From NCBI RefSeq assembly GCF_050920415.1, contig NZ_CP169309.1: a stretch of DNA of 64,000 bases. The stretch is one strand, 5' to 3'. Under the pieces are notes generated by a model. It made no database searches and was not told the origin of the DNA. It saw only the letters and a program-made list of their open reading frames with translations. The position numbers and the translations under genes were made by a program. Shown one piece after another: positions 27,432-45,774 of this stretch (positions within the stretch are counted from its first letter, which is position 1; every line of letters starts with the position of its first letter). The stretch is from Escherichia coli (GTDB lineage Bacteria; Pseudomonadota; Gammaproteobacteria; Enterobacterales; Enterobacteriaceae).

Positions 27432-29902
27432 TGGCTATCAGTTGGATCCAGCCCAGCTTTGCCGGTGGTGAGATTGGACCGTCGTTGTACGGTCGTATCG
27501 ACATGGCGAAGTACCAGGTGGCATTGCGCAAGTGCGATAACTTTATCGTGCGGCAGTATGGCGGCGTTGAGAATCGACCTGGTACGCGTTTTGTCGGTGC
27601 CGCCAAATACCCAAATCGGAAATGCCGCCTGATCCCGTTCCAGTTCTCGACGGTTCAGACCTACGCTCTGGAGTTCGGACACCAGTACATGCGCGTTATC
27701 AAAGATGGTGCGTTGGTGCTGAACAGCAGCAATGTTATTTATGAAATTGCCACGCCATATACTGAAGCCGATCTGTTCCGAATTAAATTCACGCAAAGCG
27801 CCGACGTGCTTACGCTGGTTCACCCGGCATACCCGCCGAAAGAGTTGCGCCGCTATGCGCATGATAACTGGCAACTGGTTGATGTGGTAACGAAGAACGG
27901 GCCATTTGAAGATATCAATATTGACGAGTCAGTGACGGTTTATGCCAGCGCCAGCACCGGGACAATTACGTTAACGGCAAGCGCCTCTATTTTTGGCGCG
28001 GAGCAGGTAGGCAAATTGTTCTATCTGGAACAGCCTGCAGTGGATTCTGTGCCGGTATGGGAAACCAGTAAGAGTACGTCGATTGGCGATATTCGCCGTG
28101 CAGACAGTAACTACTATCGCGCCGTTACAGCAGGCAAAACAGGCACTTTGCGCCCTTCGCATACAGAAGGCACATCATGGGATGGCTGGGGCGGATCCGG
28201 TGATGATGATACCGGCATTGAGTGGGAGTATCTGCACAGTGGTTTTGGCATTGCCCGTATCTCTGCTGCAAATGGAACTACTGCAACTGCCGAGGTGATT
28301 TCCTATATCCCTTCGCAGGTCGTTGGCGAGGATAATGCCAGCTATAAATGGGCTAAATATGCCTGGAACAGTGTTAATGGTTATCCTGGCACTGTTGTTT
28401 ATTATCAACAACGTCTTTACTTCGCCGCATCGACTGCGTTCCCTCAGACTATCTGGGCCAGCCGTACTGGGGATTATAAGGATTTTGGCAAAAGCAATCC
28501 TACGCAGGATGATGACAGAATTATCTACACCTATGCCGGGCGTCAGGTTAATGAGATCCGTCACCTGATTGATGTAGGTTCGCTGGTGGCGCTGACTTCC
28601 GGAGGTGAGTACGTCATCACCGGCGACCAGAACAAAGTGTTAACCCCATCATCATTTGCATTTAGCTCTCAGGGATCAAATGGCTCAAGCAACGTCCCAC
28701 CAATTGCTGTGGCGAATATTGCTCTGTTCGTCCAGGAGAAAGGCAGTGTTGTCCGTGATCTGGCCTACTCATTCGATGTTGACGGCTATCAGGGGAACGA
28801 CCTTACTATCCTTGCCAATCATCTTTTTCAGAAGCACAGCATTGTTGACTGGTGCTTCTCTATTGTCCCTTACTCCAGCGCCTTCTGCATTCGTGATGAC
28901 GGTAAATTACTGGTGATGACCTATTTGCGTGATCAACAGGTTTTTGCATGGGCACCACAGTCCAGTACCGGAAAATATGAAAGCACATGCAGTATCAGCG
29001 AAGGAAATGAAGATGCGGTGTATTTCGTCGTTAACCGAACCGTTAACGGGCAAACAGTGAGATACATCGAGCGGCTGTCCAGCCGTTTATTTACCAGCGA
29101 TGAAGATGCTTTCTTTGTTGATTCTGGCCTTAGCTATGATGGAAGAAATACGTCTGACAGAACGATGACCATCACTGGTGGTTCTGGTGAATGGGATTAC
29201 CGCGTGGAATATACAATCAGTATTTCTGGTGGTGCGTACTTCACCAGTAGTGATGTCGGTGCGCAACTACAATTCCCTTATACCGGAACTGATCCTGATA
29301 CTGGCGATGAAGTGTCAAAAGAATTACGTTGCGACATTATTTCTGTAACCAGCAATACCGCTGTAGTGGTTCGTGCTAACAGGAACGTCCCGCCATCCCT
29401 CAGGAATGTGGCCACCACGAACTGGCAGATGGCGCGCCGGACATTTGGAGGCCTGTCTCATCTTGAAGGCCAGACCGTAAACATTCTCTCTGATGCGAAC
29501 GTGGAACCACAGAAAGTGGTTTCCGGAGGTGCCGTCACGCTGGAATCTCCGGGGGCTGTAGTGCACATCGGCCTGCCAATAACTGCTGAATTCGAAACAC
29601 TGGATATCAACATTAACGGACAGGAAACGCTGCTGGACAAAAAACAGGTGATCCCATCCGTTACTCTGGTTGTGAATGCCAGCCGCGGCATCTGGGCGAC
29701 TACGCCCGGCGGTAAATGGTACGAATATCCACAGCGTGAATTCGAGTTCTACGATGATCCTGTTGATGATGCTACCGGAAAAGTAGAAGTGAAACTGGAC
29801 AGTAACTGGGGCAAAAACGGACGTGTAAAAATCCGTCAGCTTGATCCGTTGCCGCTGTCTGTTCTTGCCGTTATTCCTCGCCTTACTGTTGGGGGATTCT
29901 GA
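27431..29902 (+). CDS. tail tubular protein B (T7 gp12-like)
   Basis: 823 aa; N-terminal pattern similar to T7 gp12. Confidence 0.65.
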   Translation: MAISWIQPSFAGGEIGPSLYGRIDMAKYQVALRKCDNFIVRQYGGVENRPGTRFVGAAKYPNRKCRLIPFQFSTVQTYALEFGHQYMRVIKDGALVLNSSNVIYEIATPYTEADLFRIKFTQSADVLTLVHPAYPPKELRRYAHDNWQLVDVVTKNGPFEDINIDESVTVYASASTGTITLTASASIFGAEQVGKLFYLEQPAVDSVPVWETSKSTSIGDIRRADSNYYRAVTAGKTGTLRPSHTEGTSWDGWGGSGDDDTGIEWEYLHSGFGIARISAANGTTATAEVISYIPSQVVGEDNASYKWAKYAWNSVNGYPGTVVYYQQRLYFAASTAFPQTIWASRTGDYKDFGKSNPTQDDDRIIYTYAGRQVNEIRHLIDVGSLVALTSGGEYVITGDQNKVLTPSSFAFSSQGSNGSSNVPPIAVANIALFVQEKGSVVRDLAYSFDVDGYQGNDLTILANHLFQKHSIVDWCFSIVPYSSAFCIRDDGKLLVMTYLRDQQVFAWAPQSSTGKYESTCSISEGNEDAVYFVVNRTVNGQTVRYIERLSSRLFTSDEDAFFVDSGLSYDGRNTSDRTMTITGGSGEWDYRVEYTISISGGAYFTSSDVGAQLQFPYTGTDPDTGDEVSKELRCDIISVTSNTAVVVRANRNVPPSLRNVATTNWQMARRTFGGLSHLEGQTVNILSDANVEPQKVVSGGAVTLESPGAVVHIGLPITAEFETLDININGQETLLDKKQVIPSVTLVVNASRGIWATTPGGKWYEYPQREFEFYDDPVDDATGKVEVKLDSNWGKNGRVKIRQLDPLPLSVLAVIPRLTVGGF

Positions 29903-30366
29903 TGATTGGTGTTCAAATTATTCCCGCAACCGAAGAGCATCTTCAGATGATTTTGCCGGATGTTCGTCAGGCTGATATTGACGAACTGTATGCGGTATCG
30001 CTGATGACTACCGAAGATGCGCTGCGTGTTGGTCTGCGCACTGCGACTATGGCCTGGTCAGGGTTCGCGAACGGAGAACTGGTAACCATGTTTGGTGTAT
30101 CTCCGGCGTCAATGATCGGTGGCAATGGTACGCCCTGGCTGGTCGGGACCAGCCGTATTGAAAAATATCAGAAGACATTTCTTCGCCACTGCCACCCTGT
30201 ATTGCGGCAGATGCTGGCAGTTTATCCGCGCCTGGAAAACTACGTCGACGAGCGAAACCATGTTGCCAAAGCATGGCTCCACTGGCTTGGATTCAGGCTT
30301 GAAGAAGCCGCGCCTTATGGTGCTCTTGGTCTTAATTTCCACAGATTTCACATGGAGAGAAAATAA
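29902..30366 (+). CDS. internal virion protein (gp13-like position)
   Basis: 154 aa; overlapping stop/start chain. Confidence 0.45.
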   Translation: MIGVQIIPATEEHLQMILPDVRQADIDELYAVSLMTTEDALRVGLRTATMAWSGFANGELVTMFGVSPASMIGGNGTPWLVGTSRIEKYQKTFLRHCHPVLRQMLAVYPRLENYVDERNHVAKAWLHWLGFRLEEAAPYGALGLNFHRFHMERK

Positions 30367-30911
30367 TGTGCGATCCGGTTATTGCTGGTGGCGCAATGCT
30401 CGCCATGAGTGGCATTCAGGCATACACCCAGTACCAACAGGGAAAGTATGCCTCGAAGGTTGCAGAAGCGAACGCAGATATAGCCACAGCTCAGGCAAAT
30501 GATGCAATAAATAGGGGTAACGCTGAAGCTGAGCAACGGCGCAGAGAGACCCGACAGCGGCTTGGTACACAGGCGGCGACAATGGGGGCGACCGGCGCCG
30601 ATTTATCTACAGGTAACGCGCTGGATATATTTGGTGACACTGCTCAGTTTGGCGCCCTTGATTCGCTGACGACGGTGAATAACGCGCAACGCGAGGCTTA
30701 CGGTTATCAGGTTCAGGCTGCTAACTATAAAGCAGAAGCCAGTTCAGCCCGTAAACAGGGGAATGTGGGAGCAGCAACAACATTGCTCACTGCGCCTCTG
30801 AAGGCATACGGTGCGTACCAGATGTTTGGTGGGACGTGGAGTCCGTTTACTCAAAGCACTCCTGCGCCAATCGGGGCAGCAGCAGGAACCAGATTACCTG
30901 GAGGATTATAA
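30366..30911 (+). CDS. internal virion protein (gp14-like position)
   Basis: 181 aa Ala/Gln-rich. Confidence 0.45.
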   Translation: MCDPVIAGGAMLAMSGIQAYTQYQQGKYASKVAEANADIATAQANDAINRGNAEAEQRRRETRQRLGTQAATMGATGADLSTGNALDIFGDTAQFGALDSLTTVNNAQREAYGYQVQAANYKAEASSARKQGNVGAATTLLTAPLKAYGAYQMFGGTWSPFTQSTPAPIGAAAGTRLPGGL

Positions 30912-33424
30912 TGCCAGTCGTACCAACAGTATCCGGACGTCAGGTTGAGAGCCGTGGAGTTCAGTCAGCAGGCTTGCAGACGTTTTCTCAGCCAGGTATT
31001 GGTGATGCTTTTGTTCGGGCAGGGGCAGAGACAATTGATGTTTTTGGTCAGGCAAAACAGCGTGCCAATATCGCTCTGGCTCAGGAGGCATCCCTTAAAC
31101 TCAGTCAGACAGGCAGCGATCTGCTGAATAACCCTGAAACAGGTTTGCTTAACCTGAAAGGGAAAAATGCTATTGGAAAAGGTCAGGAGTATACGCAGCA
31201 GTTTGATGCTCAGATCGAACAACTGGCTATGTCGCTGCCGGATGAACAGGCTCGTAATGCTTTCATGCAGCAGGCGCAGCAGCAGCGTATTCAGTTCACT
31301 ACGCAGGCCGGGCGGCACGAGATAGGGCAAATAAATGCCTACGAAGAAGGTCAGTTTCAGGCGACGCTGCTGAACAATGGTAAAAATGCCGCAGCATTGT
31401 ATGGCGACAATGCCGCATACGTATTGGCTAATAAGCAAACTTTCCAGCAAATTGAGGAGTACGGTGCTGCACATGGCTGGAGCGACGAGCAAATACAGGC
31501 CAAGAAAATCGAGTTTAAAGAGAAGGTTGCTGATGCAGCATTGTCCCAGTGGTCGGCAAACAATGCGATCTCATTTATCCAAAGTAATGGCGAGTTAAGC
31601 GATACTGCTGCTGGAGCTCGCCGTGCTGTAGCAGATAGTGACTCTTCCGAGCGTGCCCGTGGCATACGCAACAATAACCCAGGAAATCTCGAATACAGCA
31701 AAACTAATCCGTGGGTAGGCCAGACCGGTGATGATGGTCGATTTGCTAAATTCGAAACACCTGAACACGGGATTCGTGCATTAGGGCGGAACCTGATGTC
31801 GTATCAGAGGCAGGGTATTGATACCGTCAGCGAGATAATTAATCGCTGGGCACCGCCTACTGATAAAAATGACACTATGTCGTATATCAAAGCAGTGTGC
31901 GAACAACTTGGCGTTTCTGCTGATGAGCCTCTCGATGCATCTAATCCTGATACCCTGAAGGCGCTTTGTGCAGCCATTATCCATCATGAGAACGGTAGCC
32001 AGCCATACAGTGATCAGCAGTTAACTGCTGGTGTCAGTGCAGCACTTGGTTTATCAACAATTCCAACCAACACCAAACGCTATACCGGTAATGCAGCATT
32101 CGATGCGGCATCTCCTGAGGCGCAGGCAAGTTTTATGCGACAGGCGGATCAACTGCGTCGGCAGCAGCAGGCTGAATATAAAACGATGATTGACAGCCAG
32201 GTTCGCGATGCGACAGCTGCGTATATGCGTGGCGTTGAATTTCCTAACCCACCTGGTGAGGCTGATTTTATTGCAGCTTATGGAGTCAGAGAAGGAAAAC
32301 TGCGATATACCGAGTTCAGAAATACGCAAATCGCCGGACAGTATATAGGCTCTTTCCGCAACATGCCGACAAGCAGCATTACAGCATATGTTGAGCAATT
32401 ACGCCCGGATACTGGTGAGACAGGGGAGGGTTATGCGGCACGAGCCGCTCTTTATGACAACGTTGTGTCGGCTGCAAGTCAGGTGATAAAGCAGCGACAG
32501 GCTGATCCTGTACAGTTCTCTCTTGCCGCCGGACAGGCAAAGCCTATCGACATGAGCAATAAGGATAACTTTGGACAGAGCGTTGCCTTGCGTGCTGCTC
32601 AGGTCAGTGACCTTGCTAAGTCATATGGCACTCCACTGACGTTCTTTTCCAAAGACGAGGCCAATCAGATCGGTGTTTTCTTTCGTGATGCGCCCGTTTC
32701 CCAACAGGCAGCATATCTCGATACCATCAGGCAGAGCACTGGTGGTGGGCAGGTGTATATGTCAGCACTACAGCAGATCAGTGCCAACGCTCCATCTGCT
32801 GCCGTTGCCGGGATACTGATGGATAAGCCAGGTGGTATTTTGGCAGAAAAAAACTGGTTTAATCCGGATGTTTCCGTGTCTCCTGAAACCGCTGCGCAGA
32901 CAATTCTTGCTGGCGCGGCGGCTCGTAAAGGTACTGATGACGCGAAAGGTATTCCGATGCCTAAAGATGCTGATCTCCGCCTTGAGTTTTCTGACATGGT
33001 GAAGGATGCATTTGCTGGTGATGCTCAGGGGGCATCAATGGCATACGAGATCGCAAAGGACTATTACGCTGGTGTGATGGCGAAAAAAGGCGTGGTATCA
33101 GGCGAAATTGACAATGATATCTGGAAACAGGCTGTTAACGTAGCTACAGGTGGCGTGCATGACTATAACGGAATGGGGAATGTTCTTTTGCCGTGGGGAA
33201 TGTCTGCAGAGCAATTCGATAAGCAGGTTAATCAGGCTTGGAATGAACAAGTTGTTGGCACAGGGATAAAAACACCGCCTGGTCAGTATGGTTTGCAAAG
33301 TTACGGCGATAGTCAGTACCTGGTGAAACTTGGTACTGGTTATCTGCTAAAAGATGATGGTTCTCCCGTTGTTCTTGATCTGACACAGAAGCGTCAGAGA
33401 TTCTCCGGAGATATTCCGCAATGA
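30911..33424 (+). CDS. internal virion/ejection protein with candidate cell-wall hydrolase motif
   Basis: 837 aa; GIRNNNPGNLEY...GRFAKFETPEHGIRALGRNL segment. Confidence 0.55.
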   Translation: MPVVPTVSGRQVESRGVQSAGLQTFSQPGIGDAFVRAGAETIDVFGQAKQRANIALAQEASLKLSQTGSDLLNNPETGLLNLKGKNAIGKGQEYTQQFDAQIEQLAMSLPDEQARNAFMQQAQQQRIQFTTQAGRHEIGQINAYEEGQFQATLLNNGKNAAALYGDNAAYVLANKQTFQQIEEYGAAHGWSDEQIQAKKIEFKEKVADAALSQWSANNAISFIQSNGELSDTAAGARRAVADSDSSERARGIRNNNPGNLEYSKTNPWVGQTGDDGRFAKFETPEHGIRALGRNLMSYQRQGIDTVSEIINRWAPPTDKNDTMSYIKAVCEQLGVSADEPLDASNPDTLKALCAAIIHHENGSQPYSDQQLTAGVSAALGLSTIPTNTKRYTGNAAFDAASPEAQASFMRQADQLRRQQQAEYKTMIDSQVRDATAAYMRGVEFPNPPGEADFIAAYGVREGKLRYTEFRNTQIAGQYIGSFRNMPTSSITAYVEQLRPDTGETGEGYAARAALYDNVVSAASQVIKQRQADPVQFSLAAGQAKPIDMSNKDNFGQSVALRAAQVSDLAKSYGTPLTFFSKDEANQIGVFFRDAPVSQQAAYLDTIRQSTGGGQVYMSALQQISANAPSAAVAGILMDKPGGILAEKNWFNPDVSVSPETAAQTILAGAAARKGTDDAKGIPMPKDADLRLEFSDMVKDAFAGDAQGASMAYEIAKDYYAGVMAKKGVVSGEIDNDIWKQAVNVATGGVHDYNGMGNVLLPWGMSAEQFDKQVNQAWNEQVVGTGIKTPPGQYGLQSYGDSQYLVKLGTGYLLKDDGSPVVLDLTQKRQRFSGDIPQ

Positions 33425-35223
33425 GTTACTTTGGCCTTAATCCAGTAAACCAGAATCAGCAGCTTGACGAAGCAGCATCAAATCCAGCTGGCTTTAACAG
33501 CGATGTTGGTTTTTTCGACAATGCTGTAGGAGCGGCATTGTCTGGTTTGTACTCCGGGCTGGTGGCAAAGCCAGATCAGTTGCTCTGGGCAGGGATGGAT
33601 AAAATCGTATCCCCGATTGCTCAGTTTGTTAACGAAAACACCTCGCTCAATGACACTTCAGTTTCATACATTGCCGAGCAGAGAAAACTAGCAGAGCAGC
33701 AGGTTAAGCGGCTGACGCCTGATGCCGCGACAACCGGAACCGCCGGGCAGGTTCTTTATGGGTTGTTCGATATGGGCGGGCAGGCTGTTATCGGTACAAC
33801 GCTCGGTGGTCCGGCCGGAGGTGCTGCGGCGGTAACTTCGCTACAGGGTTTTTCTGAGTTTGAACGGCTGACAGCACAGGGTGTTGATTTCAGGACGGCG
33901 CAGGAAGCGGGATTAGTGCAGGGTATTACTGCTGGTGCCGGAACAATGATCCCTATGAGCCTCGGGTTACGTGCTGGTGGTGCGCTGGCGGAAGGTGTGG
34001 CGGCTCAGCTTGCGCGGACGGGTGAAAGTTCAGTGCGACGCGCCGCAGCAACAGCAGTAAGTGCAACGCCAGATATTGCCTATGCCGCAGGTACAAATAT
34101 TGCGTTCGGTATGGCACAGCGTGGGCTTACTGCAAAAACGCTTCGTGATGGTGGCTATAGCGAAATGGCTAACCAGTATGATGTGTTGGATCGACAGGCA
34201 ATTGCTATTGATGCTGTTCTTGGGGTGGCGTTTGGTGGTGTCGGCAGATTTATTAACTCTCGCGGCGAGTCTACAAGCGCACCAAATTTTTCACCAGTTG
34301 ATATTGATGCTGCACTGGCGGCGAATGCCGCTCATCATGCTGAAATTGATATTGCGCCCGGCGTGCCGATCAACGTGCTTTCGCGCAATTCTCACATTCA
34401 GGCTCTGCGAAAAGCTATGTCTGATGTTAGCCAGGGGAGACCTGTAGACGTTGCCAGCATTGTTGAGTCTGCATCTTTCAGTGAAATTCCTGGGCGCAAG
34501 AGTCTGCTGTCTCAGGCAGTTAATGAGGCTCTGTCATCTGTAGATGATGGAGTAACGGCGCGCGCTATAGAAAATCGGTTGCTTGAAGAACAGGCCGCGC
34601 AGCTTTTGCCGCGTGGAGATAGACAGGTTTACCAGTCTGAAATCGCTAATAGCCAACGAATTATTGAAAATCTCACTGAACAGCGTGCACAAATTCTTGC
34701 AGAAGAGCCAACCGGTAGCGGTAAAGCTTTGTCTCGTGCTCGATCAGATAAACAGGCCAGACTTCGTGATATTGATCAACGAATCCGGCAGGCACAAGAA
34801 CGCCTGGAATTTTCCCGTAACGCGTTGGCACCGCACGAGCCTGGAGGTCAGTTTTTTGAAGCTCGAGCAGAACTGGCACGGCGACAGCAGGCAGAAAGTG
34901 AACTTAATGCTCAGGCTGTTTCATTCTATAAAACAGCAGAGGTCAGGACGCCAGACGAAGTAGCTCCTTTTGAGCCCGGTAAGATATTGCAACAGACAGA
35001 ACAAAAAATGATGGCAGATCCGGCAGGAGATATTGATCTGCGTATAGCTGAAGACTCGCTGCTTGAATCACCTGACATGATAATCACCGTGCTGGATGAT
35101 GATGGTAATCCACAATCGCGCAGTGCGCGTGAAGTACTGGATGAAGCTAACAGGGAAAGTGAGCAGGCAATACAGGATTCCAGCCTGTTTGATGTTGCTG
35201 TGGCGTGTTTCTTGAGAGGTTAA
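33421..35223 (+). CDS. internal virion/ejection protein
   Basis: 600 aa, Ala/Gly-rich, overlaps flanking genes. Confidence 0.55.
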   Translation: MSYFGLNPVNQNQQLDEAASNPAGFNSDVGFFDNAVGAALSGLYSGLVAKPDQLLWAGMDKIVSPIAQFVNENTSLNDTSVSYIAEQRKLAEQQVKRLTPDAATTGTAGQVLYGLFDMGGQAVIGTTLGGPAGGAAAVTSLQGFSEFERLTAQGVDFRTAQEAGLVQGITAGAGTMIPMSLGLRAGGALAEGVAAQLARTGESSVRRAAATAVSATPDIAYAAGTNIAFGMAQRGLTAKTLRDGGYSEMANQYDVLDRQAIAIDAVLGVAFGGVGRFINSRGESTSAPNFSPVDIDAALAANAAHHAEIDIAPGVPINVLSRNSHIQALRKAMSDVSQGRPVDVASIVESASFSEIPGRKSLLSQAVNEALSSVDDGVTARAIENRLLEEQAAQLLPRGDRQVYQSEIANSQRIIENLTEQRAQILAEEPTGSGKALSRARSDKQARLRDIDQRIRQAQERLEFSRNALAPHEPGGQFFEARAELARRQQAESELNAQAVSFYKTAEVRTPDEVAPFEPGKILQQTEQKMMADPAGDIDLRIAEDSLLESPDMIITVLDDDGNPQSRSAREVLDEANRESEQAIQDSSLFDVAVACFLRG

Positions 35224-35786
35224 ATTAAATGAGACAGGAATGTATACAAGCGGTCCAGCAGGCGGCGCAGCGCACGTTAACGGCGCGAGAAATACAGAAC
35301 ATTGAAGACCGCATTTATCGCAATATGCGCTCCATTGCTCGTGATGACCCTATGTCGTGGCGACAACTTTCCGAGTCAGAGCGGCTGTATCGTGCAGCAC
35401 AATTGGCATCTGAAGAATTACAGCGAGAAGCGGCATTAAAGAAACGTCGTGTGGCTCTCACTATAGCTGCACGTCAGAGATTGGATAAATTTATCAATAG
35501 CTATCAAGGGGCTGATGGGAAACTTGGCGCTCTTAACCGTACTATAGCTTTTAATGCAGACGGTAAATCTAATTTCCTCTCTGTTGAATCCAGAACAAAA
35601 GCCACCCGTGATTATGCATTGAGTCAATTGCAGGAGGCATTCGAAGCAGTTGATCCTCGCTTTTTTGGTCTGTTTGAAGATGAAGCGGGCGTACGTAGAC
35701 TGGCCCCCTGAATCTCCAGACAACCAGTATCACTTAAATAAGTGATAGTCTTAATACTAGTTTTTAGACTAGTCATTGGAGAACAG

Positions 35787-36152
35787 ATGATTGATGTCTT
35801 AGGGCCGGAGAAACGCAGACGGCGTACCACACAGGAAAAGATCGCAATTGTTCAGCAGAGCTTTGAACCGGGGATGACGGTCTCCCTCGTTGCCCGGCAA
35901 CATGGTGTAGCAGCCAGCCAGTTATTTCTCTGGCGTAAGCAATACCAGGAAGGAAGTCTTACTGCTGTCGCCGCCGGAGAACAGGTTGTTCCTGCCTCTG
36001 AACTTGCTGCCGCCATGAAGCAGATTAAAGAACTCCAGCGCCTGCTCGGCAAGAAAACGATGGAAAATGAACTCCTCAAAGAAGCCGTTGAATATGGACG
36101 GGCAAAAAAGTGGATAGCGCACGCGCCCTTATTGCCCGGGGATGGGGAGTAA
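35787..36152 (+). CDS. insC: IS2 transposase OrfA
   Basis: [26 protein letters not shown]... matches recalled InsC. Confidence 0.9.
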
Positions 36153-37015
36153 GCTTAGTCAGCCGTTGTCTCCGGGTGTCGCGTGCGCAGTTGCACGTCA
36201 TTCTCAGACGAACCGATGACTGGATGGATGGCCGCCGCAGTCGTCACACTGATGATACGGATGTGCTTCTCCGTATACACCATGTTATCGGAGAGCTGCC
36301 CACGTATGGTTATCGTCGGGTATGGGCGCTGCTTCGCAGACAGGCAGAACTTGATGGTATGCCTGCGATCAATGCCAAACGTGTTTACCGGATCATGCGC
36401 CAGAATGCGCTGTTGCTTGAGCGAAAACCTGCTGTACCGCCATCGAAACGGGCACATACAGGCAGAGTGGCCGTGAAAGAAAGCAATCAGCGATGGTGCT
36501 CTGACGGGTTCGAGTTCTGCTGTGATAACGGAGAGAGACTGCGTGTCACGTTCGCGCTGGACTGCTGTGATCGTGAGGCACTGCACTGGGCGGTGACTAC
36601 TGGCGGCTTCAACAGTGAAACAGTACAGGACGTCATGCTGGGAGCGGTGGAACGCCGCTTCGGCAACGATCTTCCGTCGTCTCCAGTGGAGTGGCTGACG
36701 GATAATGGTTCATGCTACCGGGCTAATGAAACACGCCAGTTCGCCCGGATGTTGGGACTTGAACCGAAGAACACGGCGGTGCGGAGTCCGGAGAGTAACG
36801 GAATAGCAGAGAGCTTCGTGAAAACGATAAAGCGTGACTACATCAGTATCATGCCCAAACCAGACGGGTTAACGGCAGCAAAGAACCTTGCAGAGGCGTT
36901 CGAGCATTATAACGAATGGCATCCGCATAGTGCGCTGGGTTATCGCTCGCCACGGGAATATCTGCGGCAGCGGGCTTGTAATGGGTTAAGTGATAACAGA
37001 TGTCTGGAAATATAG
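36110..37015 (+). CDS. insD: IS2 transposase OrfB
   Basis: 301-aa ORF, DDE catalytic domain; matches recalled InsD. Confidence 0.9.
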
Positions 37016-39048
37016 GGGCAAATCCAGTACGTGACCTGGTATATGAAATGCGGGGGCAAAATACTGGCAATGCTAAAGCAAGAAAAGGTGCTAAGGCGTG
37101 GAGAGAAGTTACAGAGCTGCTGCGCCGCCGGTTTAATGATGCTGGTGGGGACATTGGCTATCTCGAAAACTGGGGGATCCCTCAACATCATTCTATGGAA
37201 AAGGTTGGGGCGGTATCAAAGGATAAGTGGGTTAGCGATGTTATAGGTAAGCTGGATCGCAAATATTATATCCGAGCCGATGGACAACTGATGAACGATG
37301 CCGAGTTGTCTGCATTTCTTGGAGAGGCTTATAACACGATCGCTACTGGTGGGCTGAATAAGCTTACTGATACCGGAATGCGAATTTCCGGCGCACGTGC
37401 TAACCGTGGTAATGCATCACGACAGATACATTTCAAAGATGCAGATTCCTATCTGCAATATCAGCAACTTTATGGCGATCGCTCTCTATGGGAAATCATG
37501 GTCGGTCACCTGGAAGGTATCAGTAAAGATATTGCACTGGTGGAAACATATGGCCCAAACCCCGATCATGTTTTCCGCTCTCTTCTTGATCAGGTGAAGG
37601 CAGAAACGGCAACAGCTAACCCGAGTAAAACCGGTAAAGTCGAGCGGCTGGCGAACAACACAGAGAATCTGTACAACTTTATTTCCGGAAAGACACAGCC
37701 TGTAGCAAATCCGCACATCGCGCGATGGTCTGACAATATCCGCAACTGGCTGGTTGCCAGCAGACTCGGATCCGCGTTGCTGTCATCGTTCTCTGATCTT
37801 GGAACCATGTATCTGTCTGCGAAGGTGACCAACCTTCCAATGAACCAGTTATTCCGCAACCAGCTTGAAGCTATGGACCCAACGAACCGTACTGAGCTTG
37901 CGCGGGCGCGCCGCGCTGGTCTGGCGATGGAATCTCTACTTGGCAGCGTTAACCGCTGGGCGATGGATAATATGGGGCCGTCAGTGTCTCGTTGGGCTGC
38001 AACGGCGGTAATGCGTGCCAGTGGGCTTACAGCATGGTCAGATGCGCACAAGCGCGCCTATGGCGTAACCATGATGGGAAGCCTGGGAGAAGTAGTGTCA
38101 CGGACACCAGACCTTCGTAGCCTCGATGACTCTGATTTTCGTATCCTGAAAAGCAAAGGGATTACTGACACAGACTGGAGCGTATGGAAGCTGGCGCAAC
38201 AGGAGGACTGGGGGAACGGTAATAATACGATGCTGACACCGGAAAGCATTATGCGTATCCCTGATTCAGCAGTTAAACATCTTGGTGAGCCTGAACGCGT
38301 GAAATTTGAGGCAATGCGTAAACTGCTCGGTGCCGTAACTGAAGAAGTTGATATGGCTGTTATTACACCGGGAGCACGTGAGCAACTGATAACCGGTTCT
38401 GGTATTCAGCGTGGAACATGGAAAGGTGAATTAACGAGAAGTGTTTTCCTGTTTAAATCGTTCCCTATCTCGGTGGTTATGCGTCACTGGTCACGCGCTA
38501 TGGGTATGCCGTCTGCTGGTGGGCGTGCGGCATATATTGCGACGTTTATTGCCAGCACGACCATTCTTGGCGCTTTGTCTCAGCAACTTAACGACCTTGC
38601 GTCTGGTCGTAATCATCGCGAGATGACAGGAGAAGATGCTGCTAAATTTTGGCTTGGTGCTCTACTGAAAGGTGGTGGTCTTGGCCTTTACGGTGACTTT
38701 TTATTGTCAGATCACACTAGGTACGGAAGCGGCGCGCTGGCGTCGATGCTTGGCCCGGTAGCTGGTCTGGTTGATGACGTAGTGAAGATTGCTCAGGGCA
38801 TACCGTTAAATGCTGTGGAAGGGAAGAATGAGCAGACTGGTGGTGATCTGGTTAAGCTGGGGAAGGGGCTGATGCCAGGTGCGAATCTCTGGTACTTGAA
38901 GGCGGCTCTCGATCACATGATCTTTAACCAGATGCAGGAGTATTTTTCACCAGGCTATTTGCGTAAAATGGAGCAACGTTCGAAGAAAGAGTTTAACCAG
39001 ACATACTGGTGGCGACCACAGGATGTCACTCCGCAATAAGGATGAGAA

Positions 39049-41975: not shown

Positions 41976-43835
41976 TTAAAAAATAAATGGCTTGTCATTT
42001 TTTAATTTTTTCCCAAACTCCCTTGAGCCTTCTAGAGTGAAATGACTATTATCAAAGTAAAGATAATCACCTTTAGTAGAAAGGATGTCACAATTCATTG
42101 ACTTTCCGCACTGCTCGGCAAGCGTATCTATGTATTTATACGAATGCTGGTTGCTACCAAGATAGCCTTTTATCGTATTGTTAATTTCAACTCTACTATT
42201 GTCATAATACTTTTTAGAGTATTTATTTATCCCATCAACTGTGTTTACGCCAGATTTAAAAGCAGACTTAATTATTTCCATTGGCTGTGCCGTAAACTTC
42301 ATCTTAGGCCCAAATACAATAACTTCTCCTTTAGTCCTCTCCTGTATTTTGCCTATAGAGTAAAGCATCCCGAACAGATCGCCAACGCCATAATCATCAT
42401 GAAGGATTATAATGTTAGCTTCAGCTATGGCTGGAGATGAGATTACGTCATTGAATATTTTTTTGCACTTTTCTACATAGGGCATGTCGTTTGGTGTATA
42501 ACCAAAGTTTGAACATAAGTTTGTAGTTCTTATATAAGTTATATCACCCTTCATCCCATTTTCAGTAAGTGCATAAGTCAGATCTATGCCATGAGAATTA
42601 CCGATTATTACTATTTTTTTGTCACCTGTCTTCGGTACAGGGTGAGGCTTGTCTCCATCAACCCAATACCTGTTCATTTGTTCTTTTAGCTGTTCGGACG
42701 TCATTGTGGCAAACGAAAACCTTGATGGAATTCCAGATAGCAATAGTACAGCGAAGCACAAACCAACTACACCACCTACAGGTAGCACGATTGAAGTTAA
42801 TTCATTCAAGGACCTGCCGTTTTTAAATTTTGAAAGTGCCTTTCTTGAAGGGTTTTCAATTAAATAAAATGATGCGGCACCAATAAGAATTGATAAGGCA
42901 ACACCTGATACTGTATAAACCATATCATCCATCTTATTCATTGACATATATACAACTATGGGCCAGTGAACCAGATATACCGAGTATGAAATTTTCCCAA
43001 CCCATTGAGATAATGCATTATCAAGTAATAGGTTATCTTTACATCCAAGATAAATGACAAAGAAAGTAGAAACGACTGGTATTAAGGCAAGATACCCAGG
43101 CCACTTCATTAAGCTGTTAAGCAAGACTATCCCCGATACTGCAAAGGCTATGGCAATCCATCTAAATACAGCAGTGCGTTTTGAATTTTGTATAGTAGGA
43201 AGAAGGTAGGCAAGGCCGCCAGCCAGCATCTCCCAAGCTCTGCTTGACAGAAGATAAAATGCAGCGCCCTGATTATTATAAGAAAGATACACTGAGGCAG
43301 TAAATGATATAATTGCAAGGATGGCAACAACATACCTTATATGCTTAGCGCCCAATAGCTTTGCAATCACCATCATTATGATTGGATATACCATGTAAAA
43401 CTGCCACTCTACAGAAAGCGACCATGTATGAAGAAGCCATTTCTGCTTTGATGCAGTATCAAAATAATCAATGCTATGGTAATACTCAACGTTTGAGAAA
43501 AATAAAAGGCTACTTCTTACGTGTTGAGCCAGGTATTCATATTCAGAAGGTAAAAGAATGAAGTAACCAACTATCAGAACAGCAACTGAAACTACAGTTA
43601 AAGCAGGTATAATTCTTCTTGCCCTATCAAGATAAAATCCTAACAGTGAAAAGTTTCCATTAGATATCTTTGTGTAAATTATTCCAGTCATCAGATACCC
43701 TGATATAACAAAGAATATATCTACGCCTGAAAATCCACCAGAGAACCCTTTGACTCCGAAGTGATAAAGGACAACTGCCATAACAGCAATAGCCCTAAGC
43801 CCGCCTATATCTGTTCTGTATTTTAAAGAAGACAT
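41976..43835 (-). CDS. O-antigen acyltransferase (acyltransferase-3 membrane domain + C-terminal SGNH-like domain, OafA-like)
   Basis: 619 aa; N-terminal multi-TM with ...AVVLYHF...DIFFVISGYL...; lysogenic-conversion candidate. Confidence 0.75.
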   Translation of the reverse strand: MSSLKYRTDIGGLRAIAVMAVVLYHFGVKGFSGGFSGVDIFFVISGYLMTGIIYTKISNGNFSLLGFYLDRARRIIPALTVVSVAVLIVGYFILLPSEYEYLAQHVRSSLLFFSNVEYYHSIDYFDTASKQKWLLHTWSLSVEWQFYMVYPIIMMVIAKLLGAKHIRYVVAILAIISFTASVYLSYNNQGAAFYLLSSRAWEMLAGGLAYLLPTIQNSKRTAVFRWIAIAFAVSGIVLLNSLMKWPGYLALIPVVSTFFVIYLGCKDNLLLDNALSQWVGKISYSVYLVHWPIVVYMSMNKMDDMVYTVSGVALSILIGAASFYLIENPSRKALSKFKNGRSLNELTSIVLPVGGVVGLCFAVLLLSGIPSRFSFATMTSEQLKEQMNRYWVDGDKPHPVPKTGDKKIVIIGNSHGIDLTYALTENGMKGDITYIRTTNLCSNFGYTPNDMPYVEKCKKIFNDVISSPAIAEANIIILHDDYGVGDLFGMLYSIGKIQERTKGEVIVFGPKMKFTAQPMEIIKSAFKSGVNTVDGINKYSKKYYDNSRVEINNTIKGYLGSNQHSYKYIDTLAEQCGKSMNCDILSTKGDYLYFDNSHFTLEGSREFGKKLKNDKPFIF

Positions 43836-43886: not shown

Positions 43887-43991
43887 TTTCGTTAAGAGTT
43901 ATCCGATCAAATTTAATCCACATATGGTTTATTGTGTATGATGAACTCACCAACTAAGGGGGTTCTTTATGCACAATAAACGGTGGTCACT

Positions 43992-44396
43992 ATGGCGCAT
44001 GTGCTGACAACAGAGTCAGTAAATCAGGGGTTAAGCCTGACTGCACTGGCGTCCGTGTTCGTTGGTATACCGCCTGAGGTGGCTTTAGGTGCTCTTGCTG
44101 GTGCGGTAATTTTTGTTACCTCAGCGGTTGAGTATCCGATAAAGCGTAGGTTGCTCCTGGCGCTCCTAAGCTTCCTCTGCGGCGTTCTCTTCTATAAAGC
44201 GACAGCTTCCATTCTGATTGGCTTTGCCAGCCTGATACCAACGATTACGCAGGACTCTTTTGAGAAGGGCATTGTGTATTCCGCCGGGGCATTCGTGTCT
44301 GCAATCGTCGCTGTTCGCATTGGCATCTGGCTGTATCACCGTTCTGAAAATCCGCGCGACATGATCCCGGGGAGAAAAGACGATGACCAGTCCTGA
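43992..44396 (+). CDS. holin-like membrane protein
   Basis: Multi-TM, first gene of lysis cassette; start 43983 (GTG) or 43992 (ATG). Confidence 0.45.
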   Translation: MAHVLTTESVNQGLSLTALASVFVGIPPEVALGALAGAVIFVTSAVEYPIKRRLLLALLSFLCGVLFYKATASILIGFASLIPTITQDSFEKGIVYSAGAFVSAIVAVRIGIWLYHRSENPRDMIPGRKDDDQS

Positions 44397-44676
44397 TCTG
44401 CTTCTCATCCTTAACGCCGCTATCTGCGGTGGCATTGCAATCCGAGTGCTTCTGTTCCGCCGTGACGGGTCACGTCACCGCTGGTGGGGTGGGTGGCTCG
44501 CCTATCTGCTGATCGTCGTGGCAGCCAGCGTACCTATCCGGACTTTCTACGGGTACTACGTCAGCGCCGACTGGTCAGAAGTCATCATCAAAGCCGTGTT
44601 CCTGGCTGCGCTCATCAAGACAAAAGGGAACGTGGTGCAAATTTTCAAGATAACGAGGTCCCAGCATGGACATTAA
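44383..44676 (+). CDS. lysis-associated membrane protein (holin/antiholin candidate)
   Basis: 97 aa with TM segments, overlaps neighbours. Confidence 0.4.
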   Translation: MTSPDLLLILNAAICGGIAIRVLLFRRDGSRHRWWGGWLAYLLIVVAASVPIRTFYGYYVSADWSEVIIKAVFLAALIKTKGNVVQIFKITRSQHGH

Positions 44677-45295
44677 CCAATTCCAGCGTGCAGCTGGCAT
44701 CAGTGAGGTGCTGGCCGCGCGCTGGTACCTGCATATCACCGCAGCCATGAAAGAGTTTGGCATCGAGCAACCGCTGCACCAGGCGATGTTTATCGCGCAG
44801 GTGGGGCATGAGTCTACTGGTTTCACCCGGCTGCAGGAAAACTTCAACTACAGCGTTGCAGGGCTCGCAGGATTCGTCCGCGCCGGGCGACTTACTCAGG
44901 GTCAGGCCAACGCGCTGGGCCGCCGTGCTGGCGAGCCATCGTTACCGCTGGAGCGCCAGCGCGCGATCGCCAATCTGGCGTACAGCAAACGCATGGGGAA
45001 CAATGCCCCTGGTGATGGCTGGAATTACCGTGGCCGCGGACTTATCCAGATTACCGGTTTGAATAACTATCGTGATTGCGGAAACGTCCTGAAAGTGGAC
45101 CTGCTGGAGAATCCTGAACTGTTGGCGCAGGACGAATATGCGGCTCGTAGCGCGGCGTGGTTCTTCGCCAGCAAAGGATGCATGAAGTATACCGGCGATA
45201 TTGCACGTGTAACTCTGATTATCAATGGTGGCCGGAACGGCATCGACGACCGGCGCGCGCGGTACATCACTGCCAGTAAGGTGCTGGCGGTATGA
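44666..45295 (+). CDS. endolysin, glycoside hydrolase family 19-like
   Basis: FIAQVGHESTGF and GRGLIQITG signatures. Confidence 0.75.
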   Translation: MDINQFQRAAGISEVLAARWYLHITAAMKEFGIEQPLHQAMFIAQVGHESTGFTRLQENFNYSVAGLAGFVRAGRLTQGQANALGRRAGEPSLPLERQRAIANLAYSKRMGNNAPGDGWNYRGRGLIQITGLNNYRDCGNVLKVDLLENPELLAQDEYAARSAAWFFASKGCMKYTGDIARVTLIINGGRNGIDDRRARYITASKVLAV

Positions 45296-45774
45296 TCTGG
45301 GCATTCGCAAAAGCATACTGGAAACAGTTGCTTATCGTGGTGATGCTTGCTGTTCTGGTCATATCGGGAATTGTTTCCTGGAATGTACACGGCAGTCGTC
45401 AGTACGATGCCGGGTATGCGCAGGCGAAGGAAGACCGCAAAGCTGAAGATGAGATAGTTCGTCAGCACTACGAACAGGAGAAATCGATCAATGAACGTGA
45501 AGCGCAGCAGAGGATCGACCAGGCGCGCAATGATGCTCTTGATGCTGCCGCTCGCGCTGGCCGGTTGCAGCAACAACTCTTTGCCATCCGTGAGCAGCTC
45601 AGGCAGTATAACGCCATTGTCGGCGCTGGGACGTCAGCCGCAGACACCGGAGTTTTGCTTGCCGACGTGCTCAGCAAATCTCTCGAGAGAAACAGACAAC
45701 TGGCAGAGTATGCTGACCGGGCAGCCGAAGCCGGAAGAGTCTGCGAAAAACAATACGACACCCTGACCAGATAG
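45292..45774 (+). CDS. i-spanin (Rz-like)
   Basis: N-terminal TM then coiled coil; ATGA overlap with endolysin. Confidence 0.6.
   Translation: MIWAFAKAYWKQLLIVVMLAVLVISGIVSWNVHGSRQYDAGYAQAKEDRKAEDEIVRQHYEQEKSINEREAQQRIDQARNDALDAAARAGRLQQQLFAIREQLRQYNAIVGAGTSAADTGVLLADVLSKSLERNRQLAEYADRAAEAGRVCEKQYDTLTR
45530..45766 (+). CDS. o-spanin (Rz1-like) lipoprotein embedded in +1 frame
   Basis: MMLLMLPLALAGC lipobox, Pro-rich; entirely inside Rz-like gene. Confidence 0.5.
   Translation: MMLLMLPLALAGCSNNSLPSVSSSGSITPLSALGRQPQTPEFCLPTCSANLSRETDNWQSMLTGQPKPEESAKNNTTP

What the first reader, a model, noticed from the sequence alone, without database searches (positions are those of the whole stretch)
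30911..33424. Internal virion protein carrying an NNNPGNL-containing segment
The 837-aa protein in the gp15-equivalent position contains GIRNNNPGNLEY...GRFAKFETPEHGIRALGRNL. I recall similar motifs in virion-associated cell-wall-degrading domains of podovirus ejection proteins but cannot confirm the family. T7-type phages need a virion-borne murein hydrolase for DNA ejection.
Basis: inference. Interest (0 to 1): 0.35.

Follow-up and report, generated by a model that had tools for sequence, protein, structure and literature searches.

The report
Virion protein with embedded cell-wall-cutting domain
This gene, in an epsilon15/phiV10-type prophage of E. coli, encodes a large virion protein with a lysozyme-like, wall-cutting domain in its middle, most likely used to breach the cell wall during DNA injection; this is an ordinary, already described kind of phage protein.

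Summary
ORF 30911-33424 (+) encodes 837 aa, and GIRNNNPGNLEY lies at residues 251-262.

Residues ~249-390 are an Enc34-type (CDD PHA02564) lysozyme-like catalytic domain:
- Sequence match to PDB 7q47 at E=3e-17.
- The Enc34 catalytic Glu131/Trp79/Tyr95 align to E360/W313/Y325, and E360 is invariant in 73/73 related domains.

The phage itself is not T7-type. It is a temperate Uetakevirus prophage (98.5% nt identity to phiV10 p18; ortholog of epsilon15 gp15). It does keep a T7-like order: tail tube A/B, IVP-A, T7_gp14-family IVP-B, then this gene.

Homologs with the same helical scaffold carry SLT or GH108 domains, or none, in the same slot. A separate holin/GH19 endolysin/Rz cassette handles lysis.

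Best reading: a virion-borne peptidoglycan glycosidase used at entry. Activity is untested. This is already known in kind (Hardies 2016; GenBank annotation of epsilon15 gp15), so interest is low.

Incidentally, IS2 splits the downstream gp17-like gene, so the prophage is probably defective.

The parts
30911..33424 (+). CDS, 837 aa: ortholog of phiV10 p18 and epsilon15 gp15; a virion (IVP-C-position) protein with an embedded lytic domain
   Evidence: ORF, start. (98.5% nt identity to phiV10, 100% coverage). (59% aa identity to epsilon15 gp15 over the full length). (phrog_992, full length).
30900..30904 (+). Shine-Dalgarno GGAGG, 6 nt upstream of the ATG; the ATG overlaps the stop of the upstream gene (TAATG)
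   Evidence: read directly from the sequence.
30911..31039 (+). N-terminal ~43 residues, predicted disordered
   Evidence: pLDDT below 50 for residues 7-43.
31034..31588 (+). N-terminal all-helical module (aa ~42-226)
   Evidence: long helices H42-226, pLDDT above 90; this module is detectable by phmmer in 51 of 150 representatives.
31655..32086 (+). Enc34-type (PHA02564) lysozyme-like catalytic domain, aa ~249-392
31661..31696 (+). GIRNNNPGNLEY motif (aa 251-262), the signature N-terminal loop of the domain
   Evidence: position. (near-invariant across 73 domains).
31847..31849 (+). W313, equivalent of Enc34 Trp79
   Evidence: alignment. (paper); aromatic in 73/73.
31883..31885 (+). Y325, equivalent of Enc34 Tyr95
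   Evidence: alignment.. Tyr in 67/73.
31988..31990 (+). E360, equivalent of the Enc34 catalytic Glu131
   Evidence: alignment (HHENGS vs RHENGS).. Glu in 73/73.
32093..33400 (+). C-terminal conserved module (aa ~395-830): mostly helical, with a small beta domain at the end; the most widespread part of the family
   Evidence: structure; detected in 132 of 150 representatives; full-length scaffold matches in BFVD.
29902..30366 (+). Upstream gene, 154 aa, IVP-A-like (epsilon15 gp13 ortholog)
   Evidence: phrog_308, internal virion protein. (epsilon15 gp13 annotation). (weak T7 Gp13 hit, below cutoff). (Hardies: standard IVP-A homolog).
30366..30911 (+). Upstream gene, 181 aa, IVP-B / T7 gp14 family
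   Evidence: PF24072 T7_gp14, 31.2 bits against a cutoff of 27. (phrog_418). (RefSeq: 'virion core protein, T7 gp14 family').
33421..35223 (+). Downstream gene, 600 aa, epsilon15 gp16 ortholog (second IVP-C candidate); one hydrophobic segment at aa 260-278
   Evidence: phrog_1145. (synteny). (hydropathy). (Hardies).
35229..39039 (+). gp17-like (IVP-D homolog) gene, split into a 160-aa and a 679-aa ORF by IS2 (35696-37026)
   Evidence: phrog_684 positions 1-161 and 157-831.. (epsilon15 gp17 = IVP-D homolog).
43983..45774 (+). Separate lysis cassette: holin (43983-44396), GH19 endolysin (44666-45295) and Rz-like spanin (45292-45774). This shows the embedded domain is not the phage's lysis enzyme
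   Evidence: Phage_holin_8, Glyco_hydro_19, DUF2514. (phiV10 annotation: holin, endolysin, Rz-like spanin).

Best explanation
The gene encodes the epsilon15-gp15 / phiV10-p18 type virion protein of a Uetakevirus prophage. It is a ~700-aa, mostly alpha-helical scaffold that occupies the T7 gp15 (IVP-C) position in a T7-like internal-virion-protein operon. A ~140-aa Enc34-type (PHA02564) lysozyme-like glycosidase domain is inserted between its N- and C-terminal helical modules.

Proposed mechanism:
1. The protein is packaged in or on the virion.
2. It is expelled with the other ejection proteins after the tailspikes engage the O-antigen.
3. As the trans-envelope conduit forms, the embedded domain cuts glycan strands of the peptidoglycan locally, using E360 as the acid catalyst with W313 and Y325 positioning the substrate. 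This makes a hole for the conduit and the DNA.

By analogy with biochemically characterised relatives, the bond cleaved is more likely the GlcNAc-MurNAc bond (N-acetylglucosaminidase) than a lytic-transglycosylase reaction.

Shown here: domain identity, fold, intact catalytic residues, gene context, alternative lytic cassettes in the same slot, and a separate lysis cassette.

Inferred: presence in the virion, ejection, activity, bond specificity and the role at entry.
For: Domain identity:
- phmmer to 7q47 E=2.7e-17 and to 9vvp Gp29 E=3.9e-38.
- AF2 model pLDDT 90.4.

Active site:
- Enc34 Glu131/Trp79/Tyr95 (PMC8943055) align to E360/W313/Y325.
- Conservation is 73/73, 73/73 aromatic and 67/73.

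Family activity: the Enc34 domain lyses permeabilised E. coli, P. aeruginosa and Hafnia. The M4Lys PHA02564 domain degrades peptidoglycan with N-acetylglucosaminidase products by HPLC-MS (PMC7143992).

Virion/entry role:
- The gene lies in the tail/IVP operon after tail tube A/B, IVP-A and a T7_gp14-family gene.
- Hardies 2016 assigns epsilon15 gp15/gp16 as IVP-C candidates and gp17 as IVP-D, and states that IVPs variably host tail lysozyme domains.
- The same domain heads the gp16-type internal virion protein D of Kayfunaviruses.
- There is no signal peptide or TM segment.
- The phage has its own holin/GH19 endolysin/spanin cassette.

Slot logic: among 111 long homologs with the C-terminal module, the slot holds the Enc34-like domain in 50, SLT in 22, GH108 in 16 and nothing detected in 23 (Pfam-confirmed examples). 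BFVD full-length structural neighbours are annotated GH108, SLT, tail lysozyme, NlpC/P60 and M23.
Against: - No enzymatic or virion-proteomic data for this protein were accessible. The epsilon15 papers that report virion composition (Kropinski 2007, Jiang 2006, Guichard 2013, Chang 2010) are not held.
- The older epsilon15 literature, as cited by others, places gp15 in the tail hub or tube and takes gp17 to be the core. The exact location in the virion (internal core or tail hub) is therefore unsettled.
- 23 of 111 scaffold homologs have no detectable lytic domain, so the enzyme may be dispensable.
- In this particular genome IS2 splits the gp17-like gene, so the protein may never act in a working virion.
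Confidence: 0.82

Rival explanations
1. The domain is the phage's (or a second) lysis endolysin, acting from inside at the end of infection, as the same domain does in Enc34, chi-like phages and BSPM4.
For: The closest solved relative is an endolysin. PHROGs that match the protein are partly labelled 'endolysin'. Many tblastn hits to the domain are annotated endolysin or lysis protein A.
Against: The prophage has a complete holin/GH19 endolysin/Rz cassette elsewhere (phiV10 annotation). The domain is embedded in an 837-aa structural-operon protein with no TM anchor or signal sequence, unlike Enc34 and M4Lys, which have C-terminal TM domains. Synteny with the T7 internal virion proteins also argues against it.
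Confidence: 0.05
2. The protein is a fixed structural part of the tail (hub or central tube) rather than an internal, ejected protein. On this reading the lytic domain is displayed at or in the tail and acts without being ejected.
For: Papers citing Guichard et al. 2013 and Jiang et al. 2006 describe gp15 as part of the tail/injection device and gp17 as the core. From memory, Guichard 2013 places gp15 and gp17 in the central tube of the adsorption apparatus; this was not verified here because the paper is not held.
Against: The genome encodes separate homologs of T7 tail tubular proteins A and B, which should form the adaptor and nozzle. The neighbours are IVP-A and IVP-B families. Hardies 2016 treats gp15/gp16/gp17 as IVPs that form a transient tube. 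An all-helical ~90 kDa protein is typical of ejection proteins.
Confidence: 0.12
3. The domain is a lytic transglycosylase of the SLT/GH23 kind, as annotated in GenBank for epsilon15 gp15 and as in T7 gp16.
For: The GenBank note on epsilon15 gp15 reads 'putative lytic transglycosylase; HHpred 4anr SltB'. The Enc34 paper finds distant structural and catalytic-residue similarity to GH23 enzymes (phiKZ gp144, MltC) as well as GH73.
Confidence: 0.15
4. The domain is a catalytically inert peptidoglycan-binding or purely structural module.
For: No activity data exist for this protein. Enc34 crystals bound no sugar ligands.
Against: The catalytic Glu is invariant (73/73) and the two aromatic residues are conserved. 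Identity to an active enzyme is 44% in the structural alignment. The slot is otherwise filled by bona fide enzymes.
Confidence: 0.04

Closest known systems
phiV10 p18 (YP_512272) / epsilon15 gp15 (AAO06078), Uetakevirus virion proteins
   Same: Orthologs. 98.5% nt identity and identical length to phiV10 p18. 59% aa identity to epsilon15 gp15 over the full length, with a nearly identical lytic domain. Same gene order.
   Different: Nothing substantive. The window copy lies in a prophage whose gp17-like gene is split by IS2. Database names disagree: 'head protein', 'hypothetical structural protein', 'putative lytic transglycosylase', and 'hypothetical protein' in RefSeq.
Enc34 ORF39 endolysin catalytic domain (PDB 7Q47; CDD PHA02564) and BSPM4 M4Lys
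   Different: Those are ~26 kDa lysis proteins with a C-terminal transmembrane domain, encoded in lysis cassettes. Here the domain is internal to an 837-aa soluble virion protein, with no TM segment, encoded in the tail/IVP operon.
Kayfunavirus gp16-type internal virion protein D (PDB 9vvp 'Gp29', 1295 aa; e.g. Citrobacter phage SH4 gp39)
   Same: The same Enc34-type domain on a podovirus internal or ejection protein (E=3.9e-38).
   Different: There the domain is N-terminal on the gp16 (IVP-D) homolog of a lytic T7-like phage, replacing T7's SLT domain. Here it is in the middle of the protein in the gp15 (IVP-C) position of a temperate phage. The rest of the two proteins shows no detected similarity (one search matches only aa 249-398).
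T7 gp16 N-terminal SLT domain; phiKMV gp36 and K1E/K1-5 gp35 lysozyme-bearing internal proteins
   Same: Same concept: a peptidoglycan-cleaving domain fused to an ejection protein, and one that can move between gp15- and gp16-type proteins (PMC8954989; Hardies 2016).
   Different: Different enzyme families: SLT/GH23 in T7, with no SLT signature here.
T7 gp15 (IVP-C, periplasmic tunnel protein; PDB 7K5C, 6YT5)
   Same: Same position after the gp14-family gene. All-helical and of similar size. Best non-lytic Foldseek hits in the PDB (E~6e-3, probability ~0.9).

Membership tests
Enc34-type / PHA02564 lysozyme-like catalytic domain | Significant sequence similarity to a characterised member | tested here: met
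   7q47_A E=2.7e-17 over aa 249-367; 9vvp_L E=3.9e-38.
Enc34-type / PHA02564 lysozyme-like catalytic domain | All-helical fold resembling the alpha-lobe of lysozyme and superposable on Enc34 | tested here: met
Enc34-type / PHA02564 lysozyme-like catalytic domain | Catalytic Glu (Enc34 Glu131) plus Trp79 and Tyr95 equivalents | tested here: met
   E360, W313 and Y325 align (residue roles from PMC8943055). Conservation 73/73, 73/73 aromatic and 67/73.
Enc34-type / PHA02564 lysozyme-like catalytic domain | Muralytic activity on Gram-negative peptidoglycan | not testable with these tools
   Shown only for Enc34 ORF39deltaC and M4LysdeltaTMD.
Enc34-type endolysin (whole-protein architecture) | Small protein with the N-terminal catalytic domain plus a C-terminal transmembrane domain, encoded in a lysis cassette | tested here: not met
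   837 aa with an internal domain. No hydrophobic segment with mean Kyte-Doolittle hydropathy of 1.6 or more over a 19-residue window. Located in the tail/IVP operon. The lysis cassette lies elsewhere.
T7-like internal virion protein C (gp15 / IVP-C) | Encoded between IVP-B (gp14 family) and the IVP-D homolog | tested here: met
   The upstream gene is Pfam T7_gp14, above cutoff. The gp17-like gene downstream is the IVP-D homolog according to Hardies 2016.
T7-like internal virion protein C (gp15 / IVP-C) | Extensively alpha-helical protein of ~50-100 kDa | tested here: met
   DSSP on the AF2 model: predominantly helices outside the small C-terminal beta region.
T7-like internal virion protein C (gp15 / IVP-C) | Sequence or profile similarity to T7 gp15 (Pfam PF26212) | tested here: not met
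   hhalign probability 0.2 and 0.3. No precomputed Pfam domain on the target's relatives, against PF26212 on T7 gp15 relatives.
T7-like internal virion protein C (gp15 / IVP-C) | Fold similarity to solved T7 gp15 | tested here: inconclusive
T7-like internal virion protein C (gp15 / IVP-C) | Present in virions (~8 copies) and ejected into the host envelope | not testable with these tools
   The primary epsilon15 proteomic and cryo-EM papers are not held.
SLT / GH23 lytic transglycosylase | Match to the Pfam SLT (PF01464) profile | tested here: not met
   No Pfam family at E<=1. Scaffold homologs with true SLT domains score 1e-14 to 1e-18, and T7 gp16 scores 1.7e-31.
Uetakevirus (epsilon15/phiV10-like) prophage gene set | Near-identity and colinearity with phiV10/epsilon15 structural genes | tested here: met
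   (GP7 capsid, portal, tail A/B, IVPs, tailspike, lysis genes, integrase).

The most novel reading that the evidence does not exclude
The ~700-aa helical scaffold (N-module + C-module) is a very widespread podovirus ejection-protein chassis: 12,725 representatives at the 50% clustering level. It has a single hot-swappable slot between the two modules. That slot accepts at least three unrelated glycosidase families (Enc34-type, SLT, GH108). Judging by the annotations of structural neighbours, it may also accept endopeptidases (M23, NlpC/P60). It can also be empty. This would make the chassis a natural plug-and-play system, and the Enc34-type N-acetylglucosaminidase, not the textbook lytic transglycosylase, would be its commonest cargo. 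The idea extends Hardies 2016 quantitatively but is not qualitatively new.
Probability: 0.6. Interest if true: 0.35.

Novelty: already known. Interest (0 to 1): 0.15.

Why it matters
It matters mainly for annotation. RefSeq calls this gene 'hypothetical protein' in the hits listed from the 404 of 5,426 complete E. coli genomes that carry it. Phage records variously call it 'head protein' or 'lytic transglycosylase'. A better name is 'internal virion protein with Enc34-type (PHA02564) peptidoglycan hydrolase domain'.

The domain is a compact, soluble enzyme module active against Gram-negative walls in relatives, so such virion copies add to the pool of candidate enzybiotics. The slot-swapping pattern is a tidy illustration of mosaic evolution in ejection proteins. 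None of this changes current understanding.

Tried and rejected
- Pfam and NCBIfam scans of the protein gave nothing. The domain is not modelled in those libraries, so that absence is uninformative.
- I looked for the publication behind PDB 9vvp and found none. I identified the phage group by tblastn instead.
- I tried to read the primary epsilon15 papers (Guichard 2013, Kropinski 2007, Chang 2010, Jiang 2006). None is held, so the virion location of gp15 rests on secondary citations and memory.
I re-ran it with 87 sequences.
- The ~100-aa insert of the 935-aa variant has no Pfam hit and no PDB sequence hit.
- The lysis-endolysin reading was rejected because of the separate lysis cassette and the lack of a membrane anchor.
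Full report
OBSERVATION. Window 30911-33424 (+) is an uninterrupted 837-codon ORF. The mechanical ORF list extends it to a GTG at 30836. The ATG at 30911 is the better start: GGAGG lies 6 nt upstream, the ATG overlaps the upstream stop codon (TAATG), and it matches the phiV10 CDS exactly. GIRNNNPGNLEY is at aa 251-262 and GRFAKFETPEHGIRALGRNL at aa 276-295.

WHAT GENOME THIS IS. The gene is 98.5% identical in DNA to phiV10 p18 and about 75% identical to the epsilon15 gp15 gene. At protein level it is 59% identical to epsilon15 gp15 over its whole length, and the lytic region is nearly identical. The surrounding genes are the Uetakevirus set: portal, GP7-type capsid, tail proteins A and B, tailspike, an AT3/SGNH acyltransferase, holin, GH19 endolysin, Rz-like protein and integrase. 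The same gene is found in 404 of 5,426 complete E. coli genomes, almost always on the chromosome. So the window holds a temperate epsilon15/phiV10-like prophage, not a T7-type phage.

The tail and internal-protein module nevertheless keeps the T7 order. T7 gp11- and gp12-like tail proteins come first, then a 154-aa IVP-A-like gene, then a 181-aa gene that passes Pfam's curated threshold for T7_gp14 (31.2 bits against a cutoff of 27). The target follows, then a 600-aa gene, then a gp17-like gene. Hardies et al. [quoted passage not shown] 'gp15-equivalent position' is therefore right as a positional statement.

The Enc34 paper (PMC8943055) defines this as the PHA02564 family. It describes an all-helical relative of the alpha-lobe of lysozyme, with catalytic Glu131 and the catalytically important Trp79 and Tyr95, and it shows muralytic activity on permeabilised E. 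coli, P. aeruginosa and Hafnia. In the alignment those three residues correspond to E360, W313 and Y325; PDB chain numbering runs one ahead of the paper's. In a MAFFT alignment of 73 such domains (70 from the 50%-clustered representative search, plus the target, Enc34 and Gp29), E360 is Glu in 73/73, W313 is aromatic in 73/73 and Y325 is Tyr in 67/73. The RNNNPGN loop is almost invariant. A second family member, M4Lys, degrades purified peptidoglycan and yields products that indicate N-acetylglucosaminidase activity (PMC7143992). The Enc34 authors reach the same conclusion for the family.

9vvp Gp29 is 95-99% identical, by tblastn of the aligned stretch, to proteins of Kayfunaviruses (T7-like Autographiviridae). 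These are annotated 'internal virion protein D' or 'internal virion protein with endolysin domain'. In Citrobacter phage SH4 the match lies at the very N-terminus of gp39, which follows internal virion proteins A, B and C. That is the place where T7 gp16 has its SLT domain.

ARCHITECTURE AND COMPARATIVE EVIDENCE FOR FUNCTION. The model shows:
- a disordered N-terminus (aa 7-43);
- a long-helix module (aa ~42-226);
- a lower-confidence linker;
- the lytic domain (aa ~249-390);
- a large, mostly helical C-terminal module with a small beta region (aa ~395-830).

An exhaustive HMMER search of 1.84 billion representatives finds 12,725 relatives at E<=1e-3. Many of them match only the lytic segment or only the C-terminal module.

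Among the 111 listed representatives of at least 650 aa that carry the C-terminal module, the slot before it holds an Enc34-like domain in 50, an SLT domain in 22, a GH108 domain in 16 and nothing detectable in 23. Pfam confirms SLT and GH108 in examples. BFVD structural neighbours of the full-length model are annotated as containing GH108, SLT, 'phage tail lysozyme', LT_GEWL, NlpC/P60 or M23 domains. Interchangeable peptidoglycan-cleaving cassettes in one slot of a conserved virion scaffold are strong indirect evidence that the slot's job is to cut the wall.

The protein has no signal peptide or transmembrane segment. The prophage has its own holin/GH19 endolysin/Rz cassette at 43983-45774. 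The embedded enzyme is therefore not the lysis enzyme.

MECHANISM. Most likely the protein is packaged with the other internal virion proteins and released through the portal and tail after the tailspikes bind. While the helical modules take part in building the trans-envelope conduit, the embedded domain opens the peptidoglycan locally, with E360 as the acid catalyst. Shown here are the domain identity, the intact active site, the operon context and the slot swapping. Virion packaging, ejection, activity, bond specificity and any conditional requirement are inferred. The review PMC8954989 notes that the T7 gp16 transglycosylase is needed only under some conditions, and that lytic domains swap between gp15- and gp16-type proteins. 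The slot-less homologs fit that picture.

WHAT IS NOT ESTABLISHED.
2. Location in the virion. Secondary sources cite older epsilon15 work that places gp15 in the tail/injection apparatus and takes gp17 to be the core. The primary papers were not available.
3. Activity and bond specificity of this protein.

COMPARISON WITH WHAT IS KNOWN, AND NOVELTY. The gene is a near-identical copy of a gene in sequenced phages. Its epsilon15 ortholog is already annotated 'putative lytic transglycosylase'. The idea that podovirus IVPs host variable tail-lysozyme domains is published, and the domain family is structurally and enzymatically characterised.

What this analysis adds is a more precise family assignment: Enc34-type, probably an N-acetylglucosaminidase, and not SLT. 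It also adds a count of the slot alternatives. The finding is real and correctly interpreted in substance, but already known, so interest is low.

IN PASSING. A 1,331-bp IS2 lies at 35696-37026, with NCBIfam IS2 TnpA and TnpB above cutoff and a 5-bp target duplication GTACG. It splits the gp17-like IVP-D gene into 160-aa and 679-aa ORFs, so this prophage is probably unable to make infectious particles. Many E. coli prophages carry a 935-aa variant of the target, with a ~100-aa insert of unknown nature immediately before the lytic domain.

Noticed in passing
window 35696-37026 (within 35229-39039): A complete IS2 (1,331 bp; orfA 35742-36152, orfB 36110-37015; imperfect terminal inverted repeats; 5-bp target-site duplication GTACG at 35691-35695 and 37027-37031) interrupts the gp17-like (IVP-D homolog) virion gene. 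It splits the gene into 160-aa and 679-aa ORFs. The prophage is probably defective for infectious particle formation.
   Followed up: yes
relatives of window 30911-33424 (e.g. P0004, aa 243-346): Most close E. coli relatives listed are a 935-aa variant. It is identical in the rest of the protein but has a ~100-aa insert (…GNINLFNRPSVKNEDGTISTVRTISIG…[32 protein letters not shown]…) placed exactly between the N-module and the lytic domain. There is no Pfam hit and no PDB sequence hit, and its function is unknown.
   Followed up: partly
window 30911-33424; RefSeq E. coli genomes: The gene occurs in 404 of 5,426 complete E. coli genomes (four listed records are 100% identical). In the rows shown it is annotated 'hypothetical protein' by RefSeq, while its upstream neighbour is named 'virion core protein, T7 gp14 family'. 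This is an annotation gap.
   Followed up: partly
window 33421-35223: The 600-aa downstream protein (epsilon15 gp16 ortholog, phrog_1145, no Pfam hit) has a single strongly hydrophobic stretch at aa 260-278 (AIAIDAVLGVAFGGVGRFI). This may be a membrane-inserting segment of the ejection apparatus.
   Followed up: no
window 41976-43835 (-): A 619-aa AT3 acyltransferase fused to an SGNH domain lies between the tailspike gene and the lysis cassette. phiV10 has its 338-aa O-antigen O-acetyltransferase (Oac) at this position, so this is probably a different or longer serotype-converting enzyme.
   Followed up: partly
tblastn hits of the domain: MG945180.1 Microviridae sp., PQ007220.1, Vibrio phage NO16-like and 10N.* (PM2-like/Autolykiviridae) records: The Enc34-type domain also occurs in tailless phages (Vinavirales; the NO16 GP11 protein is detected in the virion) and apparently in some ssDNA Microviridae genomes. 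It is used by very different virion types.
   Followed up: no
PDB 9vvp chain L: The entry holds four chains of a 1,295-aa 'Gp29' from a Kayfunavirus-like phage. No associated paper was found in the library. Four copies would fit a gp16-type core tetramer (inference).
   Followed up: partly
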